Positions 2,716 to 57,089 of a DNA stretch of 64,000 nucleotides are shown in pieces. How positions within the stretch are numbered: the stretch's first letter is position 1; each line of letters opens with the position of its first letter. The DNA is from Eledone cirrhosa (taxonomy: Eukaryota), in contig OZ024742.1 of the NCBI GenBank assembly GCA_964016885.1, positions 92,566,001 through 92,630,000 on the forward strand, given 5' to 3'. The position numbers and the translations under genes are program-made. The notes beneath the pieces are model-generated. The model did not search any database. It saw nothing but the letters and a program-made list of their open reading frames with translations, and had not been told where the DNA came from.

Positions 2716-3584
2716 CAGGGTGCGGACGATATTTGTTCGCAATTTTCAACTGCTAATTTTATGCAAATTTTTTTTACTTCCATTGTCACTCTTGTCTTCA
2801 TAAAAACAGTGACTATATTTCCATTATTTATTTTCAGAATAATTGATTATGAATAATTTTGAACCTCCAAATTCTTGGAATCCGCGCTGGGAGGACAAGT
2901 AAGACCAGAAGATCAACTCGCAGAACAGGTGGCTCACTGTCTCATCCAAAGACGTGCCCAGAGTCATGCAGACAAAGTTTCCAGCGACAACATTGGTCTT
3001 AGAGGTGTCGTCAGCAGTCAAGGTGACGTCATGCCACCTCACTTCTTCTCTGAGGGCCTCAAGCTGAACACTGATGGCTACATCTGCGTTCTGAGCGAGG
3101 TAGTAAAGCCCTGGATCGACCAGGTAGCTGCAGGTAGGCCGTACATGTGGCAGAAAGACTCAGCGCCCTGCCATACCAGCCGAAAGACCCAAGCCTGGCT
3201 GTCAGAGAACTTCGTCGACCACACTTCACCTGACATCTGGCCTCCCAGCTCGCCTGACTGCAACCCCCTCGACTTCTTTGTGTGGGGCGCAGTGGAATGA
3301 GACACCAACAGATCTAGCTGCAATACGAAAGATGATCTGAAGGCCAGGATCACAAGTGCCTTTAGGGGCCTAAGTCGGGAGACAGTGACAAAGGCCTATA
3401 GCTGGTTCCGAGGCCGCCTTGAGGCCGTCATCAAAGCCAATGGCGGGTTTATCGAGTGAGATCGAAAGAACAAGTCATGAAGACAAACTGACCCAAGTTT
3501 GATAAATAAATCTTAAAAAATAAAACTACTGTGTTATTTTTTTCATAGACAGTAATCTTTCGAACAAATATCGTCTGCACCCTG
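2716..3584 (+). mobile_element. Internally deleted Tc1/mariner-superfamily transposon, DD37D (maT) type
   Basis: TIRs CAGGGTGCGGACGATATTTGTTCG ... CGAACAAATATCGTCTGCACCCTG flanked by TA; transposase remnant QKDSAPCH...WPPSSPDCNPLD with 37 residues between the 2nd and 3rd catalytic D; premature TGA at 3298-3300. Confidence 0.9.
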
Positions 3585-7212: not shown

Positions 7213-8423
7213 ATCATAATCATCGTTTAACGTCCATCTTCCATGCTTGCATGGGTTTGGACGGGAGTTTTCCCACTTGAGGCAAGAGTAGTTGTCTTGC
7301 TCGCATAGGACTGTCTGGCGGGTTTTCTACGGCTGGATGCCCTTCCTAACACCAACCACATTTACAGTGTGGAACTGGGAGGTTTTTACCGTGTTATCTA
7401 CACGGCCACATTAGAGCGTGGACTGTGTGTTTTTTTGTTGTGACACCTACACGACCTCATTTGTTTCGGACTGGATGTTGTGGTACCAACATAACTTTAC
7501 ATTGAAAGGGGTGGTGTGGATGGGGTGGGGGTAGTGGGACAGGGGGTGTATTTTTGTTAGAGGTGCCTACTGACTGTAGTAGGTTTCACTTTGTACTTAG
7601 GTAAGGCAGGTCTTCCGTATTACTGTGTAGCGCCAAAGATCTCAGTCCAGTGACATTGTCTTGGAGAGGTGTAAGTGTGTGAGGTCGGAATTTATCAAGT
7701 CATCCCAGGTTTTTCTGGGTCTGCCTACTCCGTGGCTACCATCTATTTTTATTGCCCTGCACTTTTTTATACAGCTGTCGTCTTTCATGCGCATCACGTG
7801 ACCGTACCAATGTAGTCTTCTCTTGAGTAAACAACATCTGATCCCTCTTATTTCTAATTTTTCCCTTAGTTCGTTTATGCTTTGCCATTCACGTATATTA
7901 CTATTACACATCCAGCGGAGCATGCAAGCTTCATTCCTCTCCAGTCTGCGTATATCCTCTGCACACAATGCCCAGGTCTCACTGCCATGTAACATTGCTG
8001 TTCGTATGCAGGCATCATACAGAGAACCCTTTAGCGGCTAATAGTGGTATAAGCTCTCTGAACTTTTTCCATCCAGTTCTGACTCTAGCTACTGTACTTT
8101 CAGAGCACCCTCCACCACTGCTGATTTTGTCACCCAAGTAACGGAAGGTGTCCACTATTTCTATAGAACCATCTGTGCAATGGAATGAGCTAGTATTCTG
8201 TGGGCACTTGCTGCTACTTATTGCACCAGAGCACTGGCCACATATAAAATCTATATACTGAGTTAGCTTACCTGTGATCCCACTACATCTTTTATGCACC
8301 AATACTTTGCATTTGGGACATAAAATGGAGTTTCTGCCTACTCCTTTCCTACACACTGAGCATGGCCATTTCCCGGATGGGATCGGTGCCCTATTTTCCT
8401 TCCTACAAACTAGAACTTTAGTC
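7213..8423 (-). mobile_element. 5'-truncated RTE LINE (RT C-terminus, Cys-rich region, 3' UTR, (ATG)n tail)
   Basis: ORFs 8015-8356 (CPKCK.LVHKRCSG, FRYLGDKIS) and 7642-7995 (MLHGSETW, RRLHWYGHVMRM, GRPRKTW); near-identical second copy at 22888-23522. Confidence 0.9.
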
Positions 8424-10140
8424 TTATATATATATATATATCATCATCATCATCATCACCACCGTTTTACGTCCATTCTTCCATGCTAGCATGGGTTAGA
8501 CGGGTTGTCTTGTTGTGGGCAGTGTCTGATCGGCTGACCATGCCTTGCTCATACAGGAACTGATTTTGGCTTGGTTTCTACAGCTGGATGCCCTTCCTAA
8601 CACCAACCTCATTTACAGTGAGTGCTGGGTGCTTTTTTCCGTGGCGCCTACACGTCCACTTTACAGTGTGGGCTGGGTGCTTTTTTGCCGTGGCACCTCC
8701 ACGACCACTTTGCAGTGGGAGGGTGTGGGGCATATTGTCTATATGCTTCAGCTTGTACCCATGGGTGCATTCCTCTGTGGTATTAACACTAGGGCGATTG
8801 TTGTATATATGTGTGTATATATATATATATAAATTACAGTCCTGTCGGAGCATTGTACGTCTAACCCATGCAAACAAATAGATAGAAAGAGACTATTAAG
8901 TCTATGTTCTTTAACATTCTCATTACCATATTTTTAATGAAAGACTGCCTATAATTTTCAAATAATTTTGAAAATAATGAAGAACTTGGAGGGATTTAGT
9001 ACTCATTGTTAAGCTGGTGTTTAATACATAACATAAATGTTCTTGACCCAAATTATGATGTAACATTTTAGATAAATATAAACAATTTAAAACAGTTTCA
9101 GATCATTTGGCAACAAAAACAAAACAAAGGAATCTGAATAATTTGGAGGGATTTAATAATATAACTAACTTTCTCATTATTAAGTTGGTATTTGGAGTAA
9201 AACATATCAAAGGTTCTTACATGGAAGTTATGATGGAAGGTTTTGAGAAAAGTATATATCCAAAATTAAATTAAGGTTGTCATGTCAGAGACATGCGCCA
9301 TATTCACTGCAGAATAAGCTCAAAGATTCCAATGAATAGTTCCGAGCATTTTATATCAACTAGAAATAGATTGACACATATATATATAAAATAAACACAT
9401 GAAACAATCTCAGGGAATAATTTGTAAAGTGTGTAAGCACACATAGCTAGGTAGGTAACCAATTAAAGTTTAACTAGAACTTCAAATATAATCATTTTAA
9501 AAGGTATCTATATTTGAAGTTCTAGTTAAACTTTAATTGGCCTACCTACCTAGCTATGTGTGCTTACACACTTTACAAATTATTCCGAGATTGTTTCATG
9601 TGTTTATTTTATATATATATATATGTCAATCTATTTCTAGTTGATATATATATATATATATACACACACATCATCATCATCATTTAACGTCCAATTTCCC
9701 TGCTAGCAAGTGTTGGACAGGTCTACACAGTACTGAAGCGGGGCCACTGGCATCCCAGACAGGCCGAGAAGGTTTGTATACTGCTTATGTATAGTCATTA
9801 TCGAGTTGTTGTGTCTTTGTCACAGCTGAAGGGTCCTCTGAGCCCTTTTTAGGTATGGTTTCTACAGTGAGGTAGAAATGTACCATGTGCATTTTCATGG
9901 CAACATTACAGAAGAGGTTGTTGGTCATAGACCATACAATAAATCACATCGATTCCACAATTATTTTGCAGTTGAGTTTCAGTACTATCCTACAATTATC
10001 ACCTCAACAATGAGGTACAAATGAAACCCATTTGTCACCCAAATGGACTGAAGCAAGTAGAATTATGAAGTAGAATTATGAAGTGTAAGAGAAACAAACA
10101 AAAGAAAGAAGAAAAACATTATCTGTTGAATGTATCTTAC

Positions 10141-18414: not shown

Positions 18415-18517
18415 CTGTACGATGAGTTCCAATGTATCAATTGCTACCATGCTGACTTCAGCAGCAAGATTGCCTTCTACATGGGCATCGACTTCCACAT
18501 CACGACTGAACTTTTGA
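18415..18517 (-). CDS. DOCK7: DOCK7-like exon: (S)QKFSRDVEVDAHVEGNLAAEVSMVAIDTLELIVQ
   Basis: CCCAG acceptor, CAG|GTTTGT donor, 103 nt, phase 2 to 0; GNLA.E motif. Confidence 0.93.
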
Positions 18518-19602
18518 CTGGGTAGACAGATGAAATGAGAGAAAACAGATAAAGTATTTCACATTAGTTCTTAAAATACAACCACAATTTAGCAGAAAAT
18601 GTCTAAAAACAGGTTTGTTAATTCAGATGTTTATAATATCTATACTTGTGGACACATTATTGTGAACATTTATAGTATTAGACTAAAGACTTTATTATAT
18701 AATGTGGTGCAGTCAATTATGCTAAAAATGATGTTCTGTGAACATGGTGGTTAATTTATTACATAATAAAGTTAACTGCTGTTTTATATTTTACAAGAAT
18801 GTTTTGCTGCTGTGTTTTCATGTGGTACTGGATTTTAATAGTTAATAATACTAAGCACCCTGCATCACCACAAACATATTGAAGCCATTTTCTCTGCTGA
18901 AGTAGGAATTAACTTTGCAGGCTCCATGATGGTCTTTTATACTCATCATGAAGTCCTTTCTGAAGCAATGTTTTACAACTGGATGTCCTTTCTGGCATAA
19001 ACCCTTTCAGTTGTCTATTGACACATAGAGACAGAATGTGCCTATTCTAAATTGGATAAATCCTACATTATAACATTATACAGACACTCCACCCATGTCC
19101 ACTTTGAAAAAAATGGTATAAGTGTTTTAAAGTGAACAAGGGTGCGTCTATTCTATGGAAAAGTGAACAAACAATCTAAGTTAAAACTCCACTGTGGGTG
19201 ACTAACTCTTGTCCATCTGAGACACAAAAAAGTAGCTGTTAAGTATAAGCATTGATTCAATTAACCTCAGAGTTCACTGCCATTCAAGCAGACTTCTCAA
19301 TTGATTAAGTGTACCAGCTGTGTATCACCAGGAAAAGGCAAGGTGCCGAATTTGCAGAGCTATTAAGAATATTGAATACAATGCCTCACAGTATTTGTTC
19401 TGGCCTTCTGAATTCTGAGTTCAAATTTCACCAAGTACATATTTATCTTTTATTTCTCCGAAGTCAATACTGAGAAAACAGTAACTCCGATTGATTACTG
19501 ACTTGATGTGTGACGACCCATCGAACCCATGCCAGCATGAAAAAAAACAGATGTTAAATGATGATGATGTGACTTAAGGTTACAATGGGGTACAGTACAA
19601 AC

Positions 19603-19699
19603 CTTTCATAGTGTTCATGGGGCTGTTTCCATTGAAATTGGTCCTTCCGCCAGCGAAGACGACTTCCATCGGAATTCCCCGATGGAGGTGTACGCTCAC
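19603..19699 (-). CDS. DOCK7: DOCK7-like exon: (G)ERTPPSGNSDGSRLRWRKDQFQWKQPHEHYE
   Basis: TTTTTCAG acceptor, AG|GTTTGT donor, 97 nt, phase 1 to 2; LRWRKD motif. Confidence 0.93.
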
Positions 19700-20344
19700 C
19701 TGAAAAATAATGTAGGAGATTTATCAATTTTATAAACATATTTCTAATGAAATACTATGTTTTAATTAATCAATAAAGAATTTGGAAGGAATTACTAAAA
19801 TTATTAATTATTTCATTAAGATGGTATGTCACATAACAAATGGTTCTTATATATTGGTTGGAACTCTTTTAAAATGGGTGGTTTTGGGTGAGTTGATATC
19901 AAAAGTCTTAACTTTCAGAGGAATTGAAACAGCAGTAGCTCCAATTAAATGCTGATTTGGTCTGTAACGACCTAGTCAAGCTATATCAACCAAGTGGACA
20001 TAAAATGATGATGATGATAAACACTTTAAAATTAACAGCTTTGTATCATAAAACCATGGTGGGTTGGTATCATCATCACCATTTAATGTCTATTTTTCCA
20101 CACTAACATAGGTTGGACAAGTTGTCCCATTTGAGGTAAGTCAGATCAGGTGACCATGTCTTGCTCATACAGAACTGCTTCTGGCTTGGTTTCTACTGCT
20201 AGATACCCTTCCTCATGCCAACCACATTTATTGGGTGGACAGGGTGCTTTTTATCATGGCACCGAAACATCCACTTTACAGTGTGGGCTGGTCATTTTTT
20301 GTTGTGACACCAAAATGGTCTTTGGCAGAATTCCATGAAATTAC

Positions 20345-20492
20345 CTGAGTTACTGAAACTTGTTTGGCGTCGCCTTAGCATCATTTCAGTCCTAGCATTT
20401 GAATTTCCGAGAATTGCTTCTTCAAGACGTGTCTTCATGTCGACACTTCGCCTGAAAGTCTGCTGGGAATACTGGCTCATTGCTTTCTTACC
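20345..20492 (-). CDS. DOCK7: DOCK7-like exon: GKKAMSQYSQQTFRRSVDMKTRLEEAILGNSNARTEMMLRRRQTSFSNS
   Basis: CAG acceptor, CAG|GTAATT donor, 148 nt, phase 0 to 1; DM...LEEAILG motif. Confidence 0.94.
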
Positions 20493-22887: not shown

Positions 22888-23522
22888 ATCATCATCATCG
22901 TTTAACGTCCGTGTTCCACACTTGCATGGGTTTGGATGGGGGTTTTCCCACTTGAGGCAAGAGTGGTTATCTTGCTCGAATAGGACTATCTGGCGGGTTT
23001 TCTACAGCTGGATGCCCTTCCTAACACCAACCACATTTACAGTGTGGGGCTGGGAGGTTTTTACCGTGTTGCCTACACGGCCACATTACAGCGTGAACTG
23101 TGTGTTTTTTTGACGTGACACCTACACGATCTCATTTGTTTCGGCCTGGATGTTGTGGCACCAACATAACTTTACATTGAAAGGGGCGGTGTGGATGGGG
23201 TGGGGGTGTATTTTGTTAGAGATGCCTACTGACTGTAGTAGGTTTTACTTTGTATTTAGGTAAGGCGGGTCTTCTCTATTACTGAGTACCGCCAAAGGTC
23301 TCGGTCCAGTGACATTGTCTTGGTGAGGTGTAAGTGTGTGAGGTCGGAATTTATCAGCTCGTCCCAGGTTTTTCTGAGTCTGCCTATTCCGTGGCTACCG
23401 TCTATCTTTATTGCCCTGCACTTTGTTATACAGCTATCGTCCTTCATGCGCATCACGTGACCATACCAACGTAGCCTTCTCTCGAGTAAACAACATCTGA
23501 TCCTTCTTATTTCTAATTTTTT
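22888..23522 (-). mobile_element. 5'-truncated RTE LINE 3' end, near-identical to 7213-7865
   Basis: ORF MRMKDDSCITKCRAIKIDGSHG... and shared 3' UTR. Confidence 0.9.
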
Positions 23523-25342
23523 ACTGATGTAACTGCAATAGTCAACACCATGCCAACAATTATAAGTATTAATAATCCATATGAGACAACTTAGAAAAGA
23601 ACATTATATAAAAAGGATGAATTTACATCTCTTAGAAGAGAATGCTGTTACCTTGAATACATTTTGACTGTTACAAAGGGAATCAAACTTAATTGTTGGT
23701 GTTTGCATTTAAACTGAAGAAAACAGTTTAATTCTCAGAAACTGTTTATCAAAATAACAACAAGACCAGAAATTTGTGGGAAATCATACACAGAAAATAA
23801 TTTATTTAGAGTTGCTAGAGAGATAACTTTGATTTTCAAGGCAATGTGATGTAGGAATGGAATGGTTGAAGCGAACATCTTGTTAAAAGAAACCAAACAG
23901 GTAGGAATAAAGCATTTAAAGTTAAAGCAGGAGTAACAAATGCTTTGTTAATAGAGACCATATAGTTAGGAGTAAAAGCATACACATCAAAACAACATAA
24001 CCCTCATTGCAGTGGTATATGTGACTATACAGAGAGAATATGCTACATTAGTGTATCTAGTGGTGCTTTATTGTAGTGCATATGTAAAAAAGAAAGTGTG
24101 GAATTAGATGAGATAACTAACAAAAAATAAAAGTAAATAGCGACTTTTAGATCTTTCTTTATATGTAGAAAAATTATAATTCTGTTTAGGAGGCAATATT
24201 GACAATTACAAACTTATATGATTAGCAGTGGCATCTGGCAATGCCTGAATACTGAATATAGAAAAGAAAAATGCTTTTTTCTTTTGTTAAACTTAAATAA
24301 CAACTTTATTCATTTTACTTTCTCATTATCAAATATCCTACTCCCACTACATTAGAACTTTTAGTCTTTCTTCATCTCACCCTTTTTATGTATGAGTTAT
24401 TCATAATTTATGAAGATTCATAGAGAAACAAGATAAATGGACAAATTTTCACACTTATTACACAGATTTGTTTTTTGTCCCCCGGCCCTAATTCTTGCAT
24501 TTAATCAGGCAACTGAATAGTTAAAATCTCTTTGGTACAATTTCATCAAGCATCTATCATAAGGCATTCAGTAAAAAAAAAAAAAAAGTTAAATTTTTCA
24601 AAAATGCACTTTCTTTGAAATATCAGGCATCAGTTTCCAACCTAAATCAGCTAAAATTTAGAGAGCAAACAATGGGAAAGTTTTCAGGCAACAGATAGAT
24701 AGCTCAAAGCAGAAAACTCTTCACACTGCAGCATTACCCAACATTCATTGGCTTTTGTATTAATAAATATTTACCTGATATTTTTATATCATATAATTAT
24801 TTTGAAGAATCTTATTAATTTTCTATTCTCCATAAAAGGGGGATTGCTAAATTCAACCACATATATTATAATTACCTCAGTTAGCCAACCTAGTTAGATC
24901 TGGTAAGGTAAGGCTTGAAATTTGCTAGTGAGGGTCTTCAGTAGAGACCGAAGGCGCAAGAGACATAGAAGACATAAAACCATAGGAGATGTTTTATGAA
25001 AAAATCAAGAGCAGGTGTGGAACATGCGAAGATCTCTCTCCATGTTTAAAATGCCATAGTATCTAAAACATTCAAACATTAACTGAAGGAGCACTCAATA
25101 CATGTGAGTAGAGAGTTAATATTTTCTAAATAGAAAAATGGCAGTGACTTCCACCCTCGCTTCTTTTCTCATTTTCTTCTCGTTCCTTCCTCTTGTTTTA
25201 TCTTCTATTTCTAACTATCTTCTGATGAAGGACTAGTGTCTGAAATGTTAAAACTCTTTTCCTGTTATTTCAAGCATTAAACTATTATATTTCTTCAATG
25301 TACTGTCTCATTTGCTTTGTTATTACTGTTAACTTTTTACAT

Positions 25343-25373
<31 letters not shown>

Positions 25374-25499
25374 GACACACACAGATAGATAGATAGAATT
25401 GCAGGAGCTGGTGCAGTAATATGCTAGCTTCAGCATATTCGGTAATCAAAAGGAGAGAGGTAGGTGCAAAAGCCAAACTTGCTATCTTCAATTTGGTAT

Positions 25500-25910
25500 T
25501 CATGCCAAACTTTACCTATCATCATGCATTCAGGGTTCTTCCGAAGGGTCTTTGGGATAATATTACTCAATAGAGTGCGTAGCTTGGAGATCAGAGAGTC
25601 ACTCCAGGTAGAGCCACTACTTCTCCAAATTGAGAGATCACAGCTCCGGTACTATGGCCATATGCTTAGAATGTCTCAGGAAAGAATCACTGGGCAGATT
25701 TTACAGGTAAAACCAACTGGTAGGAGACCCGGGGTAAACCCCAAGCAAGATGGTTGAATAAAATCCATGAACTCGGCTGGTCTGGCTTGGGGATCTGGCC
25801 AGATCAGTTGGAAACGGTTGCTTCTGACAGGACCCACTTGAAGGAGTGCTTCAGGTCTCTGCCCCCATGACCCTCTCAGGAATATGTGGGCAAAGAAGAT
25901 AGATAGATAT
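25500..25910 (+). mobile_element. RTE/Expander(Rex3)-like LINE 3' fragment with (GATA)n tail
   Basis: Reads RVRSLEIRESLQVEPLLLQIERSQLRYYGHMLRM...PTGRRP. Confidence 0.8.
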
Positions 25911-26305
25911 ACATTTACTAGAAAATTTCATCATTTAAAAAACAATTTTGAGTTACTTTATATGAAACTGATCTAGCAAGCCTGCAGTCTAAGTAATTAT
26001 CAGTGACTAAAAAAAGTTATCAGGGAATGAAAGGGTGAGATGATAGATCAAACCTGATGCCCACAAATGCTTGAAAAGAGTAGTTAGTAAAATTTTCATG
26101 GTATATGTTAAACTTTTTTCTAAATAAAGCCAAAAATAAATAAAAACAGAAAAACAAAAAAATTATAACCCATAGAAGCCAGTTCAAATACCAAGCAAAC
26201 CCAAGACAGGCAATGCTCAAGGCATCAATTTTATTTTTTTATTTTTTGGAAAAAATAAAAAATATATGCGTGCCAATGCCAAACATAATTTGATGATGAA
26301 TTTAC

Positions 26306-26377
26306 CAAGAGCATATTTAAAGACGTTGCTGATGTTGGTCTTGGAGGGCGGAATGGTAAGATGTTGTCAAGGGTTAT
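26306..26377 (-). CDS. Candidate alternative cassette exon of DOCK7-like gene: ITLDNILPFRPPRPTSATSLNMLL
   Basis: T-rich tract + TATAG acceptor, TTG|GTAAAT donor, 72 nt, phase 0-0, no stop, GC above flanks. Confidence 0.65.
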
Positions 26378-26723
26378 CTATAGTGAACACCCAACAAGAG
26401 TAAAAAGAACAAAACAAATATATATATATATATATAAATATATAAATAAATAAAAAATAACAGATGAAATAATGGTTAAAAAAAAAAAGCATCAAAGAAG
26501 TCATTATCAAAATTTTAAAAATAATTTTCAGAAACATTTCCCTGACATCCCAGAGTATTCTAAGTACAGAGGACAAAGTTTACATGAGTAAATATAATGC
26601 AAATATCTAAGACAAGAAGGGTACGATGCTGCAAAACCATTGTCAATTATTTGGGACTATATATAAGATGGAGCTGGTGAAATGTCATGCAGACAAATTC
26701 GTTGATATAAAATTCTTACATAC

Positions 26724-26729
26724 CTTGTC
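26724..26729 (-). CDS. Candidate 6-nt microexon (DK)
   Basis: TCTTTGTTTTTACCATTGTCAG|GACAAG|GTATGT; TGCATG about 30 nt downstream (plus-strand CATGCA 26686-26691). Confidence 0.6.
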
Positions 26730-29102
26730 CTGACAATGGTAAAAACAAAGATAATTATAGCAAATATTCAGAAGAGACTGTTTAGTGGAAAAGGGAGATG
26801 GCAGGGCATGTCGCTCATGAAATGAATTTGTTAGTATCTGATAAGTGGACATGTGCATAGTTTGTGTGTGTATATATATATATATATGATGATATATATA
26901 TGAGGAGAGAGAGAGAATGAGGGAAATGAAGGAAGGTTATGCTTTTTAAAAAAGATCTTTTATATATAAATATGAGATAGGATGAGGTAATGACTGAGGG
27001 ATATGAGAAATGAATGAGGTAATAGCTTCATATAAAGCTGAGAAAACTGCTGCATAAAGAATATGTTGGTTCAGTTACATTTTTATACAAAACTGGAAAA
27101 ACTACAGGGAAATAGACAAATGTAGATTGAGAATATTTCATTTGGTAGGGAAGGGAATTTATAAACAATAACTCCTCTAAATCGACAATAGGTGAATAAA
27201 TTTTGAGACAAAAATAGTTTATATGATTTCTTTCATTAAGTGATAAAATGATTTTTTTTTTTATAAAGGAGAGGCATAGTTGATTGATTCAACCCCAGTA
27301 TATAACTGGTGTATTATTTTATCAGCCATGACTGTATCTGAGTAAATGTAAATATACAAGCTTTTAAATGCTTGCATATTTACATAATCATACCCAATTT
27401 AGAACTGGTACACCATATTCCTGCGTGCTGTGAGAGGTGACTAAAAGGATTAGCACTAAGAAGGGCATCTGGTTGGAAAACATTGCCTCACAAAGGACTT
27501 CATGTTATGAAGCTTGCAAGGCTAACCCTGCTTAAGTGGGGGAAATGGTTTTAAAGCACTTGTTATAGTTATTGGTTGTTGTATCATTTTTATATTTCTA
27601 AACATAACCATCAGTGTAGGTTGCTGTTTATCAGGTATCAGAATGGGAGATTGGAAATCTTTGAAATTTGCAAGAAAGAATTTGGATATTTGTTAGCAAG
27701 CCAAAATGAACTTTTTTTTTTTTAGATGTAAAACTGACAGACAATGGGGAGCTTCTCTGTGAGGCAAAAGTGGGATGGCTTTGATCTCTTCTAAAATATC
27801 TGTGCCTTAGCTAACACTGCCCATGAAAGATGGTGGTCCTGTCTTTGTCTCATGATTTCCATGTCTTTTGAAAGTTACAACATTGGTGTAAAGCCCCTAT
27901 TGCAAAACAAATCCATATTCTTACTATGTTTTAATGATTGCCATCTGTGACTCTACAGATGGTATGGTTTTTGAAATTTTAAGCATTAGTATGTTGTAAC
28001 AGATCTTTAATGCCAACCACTTGATCATAATAATAGAAGCTGTTGTCAGCAATCAAGGCTATATATACTTTCCAGGAGCTGAATACACTTGCTGAAGTAA
28101 TACTAAGATTTGAACTCATGACTTCATAGTCAGTCATCTAACAGTGCTTCTTTGTATAATTCTGTGACCCTCCCCCCTTTCATTCATTGTTAAATAATCT
28201 TTGCCCTTACTCTTCCCCTCCTTTTCCTCTCATTTATAGTCTTTTGCATTGCTACTCTCTTTTTCTTTGATTGATCTCGTAACTTAGCAGTTTGATAAAA
28301 GGGGATCAATAAATTAAGTACTGAGTTCAATATAGCCAACTTAAGGTGATGACTGAGCATCACTGCAGTCTAATAACTGAAACCAGGAAAAGAATAATGC
28401 TGTGAAGCTCTCTTATATTCTGCTAACAAAATTTCTTAGATATTGAGATTATTAATGCATTTAAACAACTATAGTTTGTGTTTTGCACAAACTACTAAAG
28501 AATAGAAGATGATGAACGGAATATAATGAAGAACTAAATAATTTACATAATGAATGAAGAAAGGATAAATCATTTGCATAATTGTAATCATAAGAGAAAT
28601 TATTTGCATAACCAAATGATCATATTAATTTTTTTTAAAAAGAAATACAAAAAAGTGAACAAAATTAAAATGGTATTTTAAATTAAAATAATCAATTTAC
28701 AATTAAATATAAAATAGACAGGTAAAAATAAGAGAAAAAATGTTTAGTTTCTGAACAAAATTTTACAACAAAATGTTCATTTAAATATGTTTAAAGTATG
28801 TTATGCCATTATGCAAGACTACCATAACATAATTTTAATAACAAAATACTTGAAAATAAATGAGGCAAAAAAATGTTAATAGAACCTTATTCTGTCCACT
28901 TCTTTTCTGCCTCAATGTGTTATATCCCCAATATATTTTCATGTGTGTTATAGTTAAAATTAAGCATTGTATTAGCTTTGCCTAAAACCCGTAACATATT
29001 TTGAAATTCTAATTTTATTACTTGCTTTGTAAAATGCTTCATTATTTAAATATATATTTTTTTAACACAAAAACAAAAACTAAAATACTAACAAAACAAA
29101 TA

Positions 29103-36585: not shown

Positions 36586-36828
36586 CTGCCCATATGTCTC
36601 TTCTTTGCCGATACCACGCCCCAGGAAGGTCCCCGTACCCCGAAACAGATCTTGGGACTTCCTCTGAATGCCTTCCCAGATTTGCTCATGAAACGATTGA
36701 GATTTGATCATGCCATTGCCTTTGTAAGTGGATCCCCGTGGTGTTGGGCTATCCTGCCAGTCTTCCAGGGTTTCCTCGGAGCCAGAGAACTGCGACAACA
36801 TGTCACAGTTCATTAGAACCCATTTTGC
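36586..36828 (-). CDS. Candidate alternative cassette exon (81 aa): AKWVLMNCDMLSQFSGSEETLEDWQDSPTPRGSTYKGNGMIKSQSFHEQIWEGIQRKSQDLFRGTGTFLGRGIGKEETYGQ
   Basis: About 60-nt pyrimidine tract ending TTCTAG, CAG|GTACTA donor, 243 nt, phase 0-0, open frame, non-repetitive GC-rich island. Confidence 0.75.
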
Positions 36829-50012: not shown

Positions 50013-50054
50013 CTTGATGAGGGGAGTGCTAGGCTGCTCGACAATGAAGCTTTC
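50013..50054 (-). CDS. Candidate 42-nt cassette exon (ESFIVEQPSTPLIK)
   Basis: CACTGACCTAATACTTTCCAG|...AAG|GTTTGT, phase 0-0, open frame; TGCATG about 195 nt downstream. Confidence 0.6.
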
Positions 50055-56912: not shown

Positions 56913-57089
56913 CTTGTATTCAAAATTAGAAACTACAAAATAGATGATCTCCACAATACGACTCAGGCGTGAAAGTGGCAGATCGGACCACCAGCTTTTC
57001 AAAACAGCATAGTCTGCATTCTTAAGTACCCAGACAAAACAGATTAGGAGGTTGTGAGAAGCATCAGCATTCAGCATACTTTTTCTGGT
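56913..57089 (-). CDS. DOCK7: DOCK7-like exon: TRKSMLNADASHNLLICFVWVLKNADYAVLKSWWSDLPLSRLSRIVEIIYFVVSNFEYK
   Basis: TTTCAG acceptor, AAG|GTAAAT donor, 177 nt; LLIC..WVLKNAD and FEYK motifs. Confidence 0.96.

What the first reader, a model, noticed from the sequence alone, without database searches (positions are those of the whole stretch)
26686..26760. 6-nt microexon (Asp-Lys) with a downstream Rbfox element
Seen: consensus acceptor and AAG|GTATGT donor separated by only GACAAG, a TGC upstream in the tract and TGCATG about 30 nt downstream. Known: this layout is typical of neural microexons. Standard annotation would miss it.
Basis: partly seen in the sequence, partly recalled or inferred. 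Interest (0 to 1): 0.7.

Follow-up and report, generated by a model that had tools for sequence, protein, structure and literature searches.

The report
Unproven 6-nt exon in octopus DOCK7
In an octopus-type DOCK7 gene, six bases framed by good splice signals sit among three genuine optional exons, but no transcript or protein seen here includes them, so they are slightly more likely a silent look-alike than a real nerve-specific mini-exon.

Summary
The motif is real: on the minus strand, GACAAG (26729-26724) has an acceptor, a strong AAG|GTATGT donor and TGCATG 32 nt downstream. It lies in an octopod DOCK7 gene, in a 36.4-kb phase-0 interval holding three cassette exons (42, 243, 72 nt) whose counterparts are in octopod gene models. 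The 72-nt one is spliced in or out in RNA contigs. Inclusion of the 6 nt is not shown: 0 of 15 listed octopod isoforms (cluster of 45) and 0 of 316 fetched proteins carry Asp-Lys there. The TGC lies 33 nt upstream, before the pyrimidine tract, with no branch-point consensus. A pattern fitted to it matches 20 genome sites, 14 distinct, against 12 for the reversed control. For it: unique sequence, in frame, 346 nt from a real cassette, at a predicted loop that tolerates inserts. The vertebrate DOCK7 microexon is at another site. Odds: silent look-alike 0.55, real microexon 0.38, 54-nt exon 0.07. The novelty label is the ceiling if it is real.

The parts
26724..26729 (-). Candidate 6-nt microexon GACAAG (Asp-Lys, phase 0/0); inclusion not shown
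   Evidence: absent from proteins
26730..26750 (-). Candidate acceptor: T-rich tract and AG, 7.0 bits (30th percentile of the gene's acceptors); AG-free zone 46 nt (gene median 58)
26718..26723 (-). Candidate donor GTATGT after AAG, 11.45 bits (88th percentile)
26686..26691 (-). TGCATG (Rbfox-type motif), 32 nt downstream of the candidate
26760..26762 (-). TGC 33 nt upstream of the candidate, before the pyrimidine tract
26724..26777 (-). Alternative reading: open 54-nt exon from a weaker upstream acceptor (3.45 bits) to the same donor; no support found
26306..26377 (-). Cassette exon C, 72 nt, 24 aa, proline-rich; spliced to the exon at 20492 in a contig of run X12, covered in X24, not covered by the spliced contig of X17; in 5 of 15 listed octopod isoforms
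36586..36828 (-). Cassette exon B, 243 nt, 81 aa; homologues at the same junction in clam, scallop, oyster and limpet isoforms
50013..50054 (-). Cassette exon A, 42 nt, 14 aa here (13 aa in Octopus models)
56913..57089 (-). Upstream constitutive DOCK7 exon ending in ...FEYK (phase 0 donor)
20345..20492 (-). Downstream constitutive DOCK7 exon starting GKK...; aligns to human DOCK6 residue 1305 onward

Best explanation
The six bases are likely a silent or barely used pseudo-exon: a chance pairing of a middling acceptor and a strong donor, with a chance Rbfox motif, inside the large alternatively spliced interval of an octopod DOCK7 gene. Shown: the motif, the gene, and three frame-preserving cassette exons (42, 243, 72 nt) between the FEYK and GKK exons, with counterparts in octopod gene models and, for the 72-nt exon, RNA contig support. 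Inferred: a 6-nt exon is too short for ordinary exon definition and lacks the branch point / tract / UGC / AG arrangement that would let an eMIC-type factor rescue it, so the spliceosome would mostly skip it and join the upstream exon to the 72-nt exon or to the GKK exon. The regulated variation at this site would then come from the three larger cassettes, which insert 14 to about 119 residues into a predicted loop of the armadillo-repeat region.
For: No Asp-Lys insert in 15 of 15 listed octopod isoforms (cluster of 45; three Octopus species and Argonauta), including the 5 that contain the 72-nt exon. Of 316 fetched proteins, 0 carry DK next to any of these exon ends, and 0 of the 251 with a parsable junction have a +2 insert. 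UGC at -33, before the tract; no YURAY or CUAAY found within 70-100 nt; AG-free zone 46 nt against a gene median of 58, unlike the architecture described. Genome-wide fitted pattern: 14 distinct hits against 12 control. Strict acceptor-donor pattern for 4-10 nt exons: 11 hits against 10 control, 4 of 11 a multiple of three. On the antisense strand of 224 kb, 3 pairs reach a summed score of 17 or more. TGCATG is only up to twofold enriched after real alternative microexons in human (PMC4317164, passages) and has a 4% background per 100 nt here.
Against: The direct test (letters between the upstream exon and the 72-nt or GKK exon in RNA) was not obtained, and short-read gene models miss 6-nt exons easily (own knowledge; notes many novel 6-21 nt exons in human). 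30 of the 45 octopod cluster members were not seen. Both in-frame sense pairs at 18.4 bits or more in 224 kb fall in this one 36-kb cassette interval, each near a known cassette (about 0.026 if placed at random, post hoc). The candidate is the only pair at 13 bits or more on either strand that is both in frame and followed by TGCATG. Its 301-nt surround is single-copy in the genome search. UGC is not strictly required for SRRM4 response.
Confidence: 0.55

Rival explanations
1. A real, unannotated alternative microexon, probably neural. Rbfox bound 32 nt downstream, with the strong donor, would promote inclusion of Asp-Lys as a fourth cassette in the loop of the DOCK7 armadillo region and fine-tune its interactions or autoinhibition.
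For: Donor at the 88th percentile, in frame, no stop, TGCATG at +32; 0 of 43 known donors of the gene have TGCATG within 100 nt. It lies 346 nt from a real cassette exon in the gene's cassette hot spot. The junction is in a loop right after a confident helix in a model of a crustacean homologue, in the region that aligns to human DOCK6 1304/1305. Inserts occur at this junction in molluscs, a nemertean and a centipede. Vertebrate DOCK7 has a neural 15-nt microexon, and DOCK-family genes gain microexons convergently. A UCU-rich stretch precedes the UGC, partly like the bipartite enhancer.
Against: Not in any of 316 proteins; UGC position and branch point are atypical; the pattern is at chance level genome-wide; the position is not orthologous to the vertebrate microexon, which lies about 450 residues further on; no tissue data.
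Confidence: 0.38
2. The strong donor is used, but with the upstream acceptor at 26777, giving a 54-nt in-frame exon that ends in the same Asp-Lys rather than a microexon.
For: The frame is open over the 54 nt; a CTAAC branch-point consensus and two TGC lie upstream of that acceptor.
Against: The acceptor is weak (3.45 bits). The peptide is Cys/Tyr-rich, as T-rich intron sequence translates, and its last residues (CQDK) were not found at this junction in the fetched proteins. The spliced contigs list no piece there (table cut to the longest pieces).
Confidence: 0.07

Closest known systems
SRRM3/4 (eMIC)-dependent neural microexons (bioRxiv 10.1101/2024.09.17.613571, passages and section 10; PMC8797185, passages)
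   Same: 3-27 nt, frame-preserving, strong 5' splice site, relatively weak 3' context, host gene a GTPase regulator.
   Different: UGC is 33 nt upstream and before the pyrimidine tract; no branch-point consensus; AG-free zone not longer than the gene's median; inclusion and tissue pattern not shown.
RBFOX-regulated alternative micro-exons in human brain (PMC4317164, passages)
   Same: TGCATG in the immediate 3' flank of a symmetric micro-exon in a long intron.
   Different: Those are defined by read support and conserved flanks; neither could be shown here.
Vertebrate DOCK7 15-nt microexon (HsaEX0020638, DreEX0028014; PMC7935315 passages, PMC12626424 passages and supplement rows)
   Same: Same gene family; short in-frame exon.
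   Different: Different site: the zebrafish RT-PCR primers read as the IHEANRD and GKRMFGT stretches, the place where vertebrate isoforms differ, matching window intron 10140-5109, where no good candidate was found (best 11.7 bits).
Octopus DOCK7 isoforms in RefSeq/GenBank (e.g. XP_052826042.1, XP_036361504.1, CAI9727165.1)
   Same: Same gene; cassettes A, B and C at the same junction in varied combinations.
   Different: None of the 15 seen has the 2-residue insert.

Membership tests
Neural microexon (eMIC/SRRM3/4 type) | 3-27 nt internal exon flanked by AG and GT, frame-preserving | tested here: met
   6 nt, phase 0/0, Asp-Lys, no stop
Neural microexon (eMIC/SRRM3/4 type) | Included in spliced mRNA | tested here: inconclusive
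   0 of 15 listed octopod isoforms and 0 of 316 proteins; the contigs laid cannot show 6 nt
Neural microexon (eMIC/SRRM3/4 type) | Neural-enriched inclusion | not testable with these tools
   Runs carry no tissue labels and are contigs
Neural microexon (eMIC/SRRM3/4 type) | Strong 5' splice site | tested here: met
   11.45 bits, 88th percentile of 43 donors of the gene
Neural microexon (eMIC/SRRM3/4 type) | UGC near the 3' splice site, between tract/branch point and AG (usual, not obligatory: 74-79%) | tested here: not met
   Only TGC within 45 nt starts at -33, upstream of the tract
Neural microexon (eMIC/SRRM3/4 type) | Long AG exclusion zone and strong CUAAY branch point | tested here: not met
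   46 nt against gene median 58; no CTAAY within 100 nt
RBFOX-enhanced micro-exon | TGCATG in the proximal downstream intron | tested here: met
   At +32; background about 4% per 100 nt
RBFOX-enhanced micro-exon | Conserved intronic flanks | not testable with these tools
   No other cephalopod genome is served (no relatives)
DOCK-C (DOCK6/7/8) host gene | Exons align along DOCK7 proteins in order | tested here: met
   Window exons match Octopus DOCK7 at about 84-100% identity (cassette A 73%); the 5' exons follow in L001-L005
Orthologue of the vertebrate DOCK7 15-nt microexon | Same intron position | tested here: not met
   The vertebrate exon maps to the intron at window 10140-5109, not this one

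The most novel reading that the evidence does not exclude
An octopod-specific, Rbfox-driven neural 6-nt microexon, perhaps with a second 12-nt one at 48714-48703, completes a module of four or five independently spliced cassettes in one armadillo loop of DOCK7. It would be a convergent gain of neural microexon control in the same gene as vertebrates but at a different site, and without the usual eMIC signature.
Probability: 0.3. Interest if true: 0.5.

Novelty: new member of a known kind. Interest (0 to 1): 0.25.

Why it matters
If real, it adds a cephalopod case to the recurrent gain of neural microexons in DOCK-family exchange factors, at a loop where molluscs already vary the protein by splicing, and it would be a natural test of Rbfox- versus eMIC-driven inclusion in cephalopod neurons. 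It would not be a new kind of element. If silent, it shows that such layouts arise by chance at a rate a genome scan will meet. The three larger cassettes are already in public gene models.

Tried and rejected
Run search: no RNA holder listed on record; 4 of the 24 listed runs were laid, three gave spliced contigs, X7 gave no listed piece on these exons. One search did not settle the 6-nt question: the upstream exon lay outside the stretch and the loose-end table was filled by repeats. A 333-nt unspliced X24 contig across 26465-26755 (depth 2.9) fits pre-mRNA or DNA and says nothing on inclusion. Search of the own genome for the eMIC-containing Pfam family PF15230 found nothing, but the control rang nowhere, so it is uninformative. 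A second cluster look-up listed the same 15 octopod proteins. Searches for shorter proteins (8 hits) and 50% representatives (15 hits) gave single-exon fragments and cassette B homologues, none with the insert. A strict pattern for 11-27 nt exons gave 58 hits against 42 control but is dominated by repeat families; not used. Orthology to the vertebrate DOCK7 microexon rejected. A repeat origin was not supported (single hit, though that search skips common words). In one search two junctions were doubtful and were dropped from the splice matrices (a GC-donor call in L003 and a spurious L018 hit). Literature: 'microexon'+'octopus' (3 listed), 'cephalopod'+'alternative splicing'+'neural'+'micro-exon' (1 listed) and 'DOCK7'+'alternative splicing'+'isoform'+'octopus' showed no description of this exon. 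Torres-Mendez 2019 is not held (nothing read); supplements of bioRxiv 10.64898/2026.09.05.749416, which analyses O. bimaculoides tissue-specific exons, were not seen and may list it.

Full report
1. Observation. The motif is present on the minus strand: a T-rich tract and AG (26731-26730), GACAAG (26729-26724), GTATGT, and TGCATG at 26691-26686. The TGC is at 26762-26760, 33 nt before the exon and upstream of the tract.

2. Host gene. The window holds the 3' half of a DOCK6/7-type gene on the minus strand. Its exons match Octopus DOCK7 models at about 84-100% identity, cassette A at 73%, and the 5' exons follow in the neighbouring genome stretches. The candidate lies between the constitutive exon ending FEYK (donor after 56913) and the one starting GKK (20492), a phase-0 interval of 36.4 kb. 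Octopod isoforms show three cassettes here, used in varied combinations. They map to 50054-50013 (A, 42 nt), 36828-36586 (B, 243 nt) and 26377-26306 (C, 72 nt). The candidate is 346 nt upstream of C. In one search (4 of the 24 runs listed), contigs of X24, X17 and X12 were spliced across 18517-19603 and 19697-20343. The X12 contig joins C directly to the GKK exon; X24 covers C at the depth of its main contig; the X17 contig does not cover C. So C is a real optional exon. What precedes C or the GKK exon in these contigs was not read, so RNA evidence on the 6 nt is lacking in both directions.

3. Protein evidence. Of 45 members of the octopod cluster, 15 were listed (O. bimaculoides 3, O. sinensis 3, O. 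vulgaris 8, Argonauta 1); 5 contain C and none has Asp-Lys at any boundary (one search listed the same 15). Over all 316 proteins fetched, none has DK beside these exon ends, and none of the 251 with a parsable junction has a +2 insert. Inserts at this junction do occur in clams, scallops, oysters, a limpet, a nemertean and a centipede, so it is an old site of variation. This negative is soft, because gene models from short reads often miss 6-nt exons (own knowledge).

4. Strength and chance. Matrices built from 43 donors and 44 acceptors of this gene put the donor at the 88th percentile and the acceptor at the 30th. In 264 kb per strand it is the only 3-27 nt pair reaching both scores; 5 pairs reach its sum, 2 of them antisense. 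In 224 kb, pairs at 17 bits or more number 5 sense and 3 antisense; at 13 bits, 31 and 31; the candidate is the only one at 13 bits or more that is both in frame and followed by TGCATG. Both in-frame sense pairs at 18.4 bits or more lie in this cassette interval, which favours at least one being real (post hoc, about 0.026). Genome-wide, a pattern fitted to the candidate gives 20 hits, 14 distinct, against 12 for the reversed control; a strict pattern for 4-10 nt exons gives 11 against 10, with 4 of 11 a multiple of three. The layout is therefore rare in any one gene but expected somewhere in a scan of a 3-Gb genome.

5. Regulatory architecture. SRRM3/4 targets have strong donors, distant strong branch points and tracts, and usually a UGC between branch point and AG (bioRxiv 10.1101/2024.09.17.613571, passages and section 10); fly eMIC exons have long AG-free zones, UGC close to the 3' site and CUAAY (PMC8797185, passages). 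Here the donor fits; the AG-free zone is 46 nt against a gene median of 58, no CTAAY lies within 100 nt, and the UGC precedes the tract. UGC is not obligatory. TGCATG is up to twofold enriched after human alternative micro-exons (PMC4317164, passages); background here is about 4% per 100 nt, and 0 of 43 known donors of the gene have it.

6. What it would do. The junction aligns to human DOCK6 1304/1305, between DHR-1 and DHR-2, which I take to be the armadillo region. In DOCK6, armadillo contacts at other residues (918-924) stabilise autoinhibited oligomers (PMC13503879, abstract, outline and passages). A model of a crustacean homologue fragment (P0002, 56-sequence alignment, mean pLDDT 74) ends a confident helix at residue 211 and places the junction (215/216) in a loop before a low-confidence helix. 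A 2-residue insert would be tolerated; any effect on binding or autoinhibition is inference.

7. Comparison. Vertebrate DOCK7 has a neural 15-nt microexon (PMC7935315 passages; PMC12626424 passages and supplement rows; PMC12871342 passages). The zebrafish primers place it at the site where vertebrate isoforms differ, about 450 residues downstream, at window intron 10140-5109, which holds no good candidate. The octopod candidate is not its orthologue. Convergent neural exons in DOCK genes are described (bioRxiv 10.64898/2026.09.05.749416, passages; its supplements were not seen). Searches found no description of this exon.

8. Verdict. Observation confirmed; interpretation unresolved. Silent or barely used pseudo-exon 0.55, real microexon 0.38, 54-nt exon 0.07. 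These odds are my judgement from the counts above, not a computed result. If real, it is a new member of a known kind. Interest 0.25.

Noticed in passing
window 48714-48703 (-): A second in-frame microexon-like stretch (12 nt, Thr-Pro-Asn-Glu) 1.3 kb downstream of cassette A, with a higher summed splice score (10.1 + 9.4 bits) than the 6-nt candidate, single-copy, with no TGC or TGCATG nearby; not seen at this junction in the fetched proteins.
   Followed up: partly
window 50054-50013 (-): Cassette A is 42 nt here but 39 nt in Octopus models; scallop and nemertean isoforms have unrelated-looking 13- and 17-residue inserts at the same junction.
   Followed up: partly
window 36828-36586 (-): Cassette B (81 aa) is conserved across molluscs, with invariant-looking 'ETLEDW' and 'WEGIQRKS' motifs that suggest linear binding or phosphorylation sites; no homologue appeared at this junction in the vertebrate or insect DOCK6/7 fetched.
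   Followed up: partly
L003:5726-5697 (-): A 30-nt optional exon of the same gene, present in O. sinensis isoforms and absent from the others listed.
   Followed up: no
L005:3657-3511 and L016:65-21 (-): Two alternative first coding exons, the distal one about 106 kb further upstream.
   Followed up: no
G000:C2:231647966-232994302 (+): Eleven similar 22-25 nt exon-like motifs in a tandem series turned up in a genome-wide pattern search, possibly a microexon array.
   Followed up: no
window 2863-3395, 7642-8440, 23256-23603, 25464-25927: ORF fragments resembling a mariner-type transposase and LINE reverse transcriptases in introns (labels recalled, not searched).
   Followed up: no
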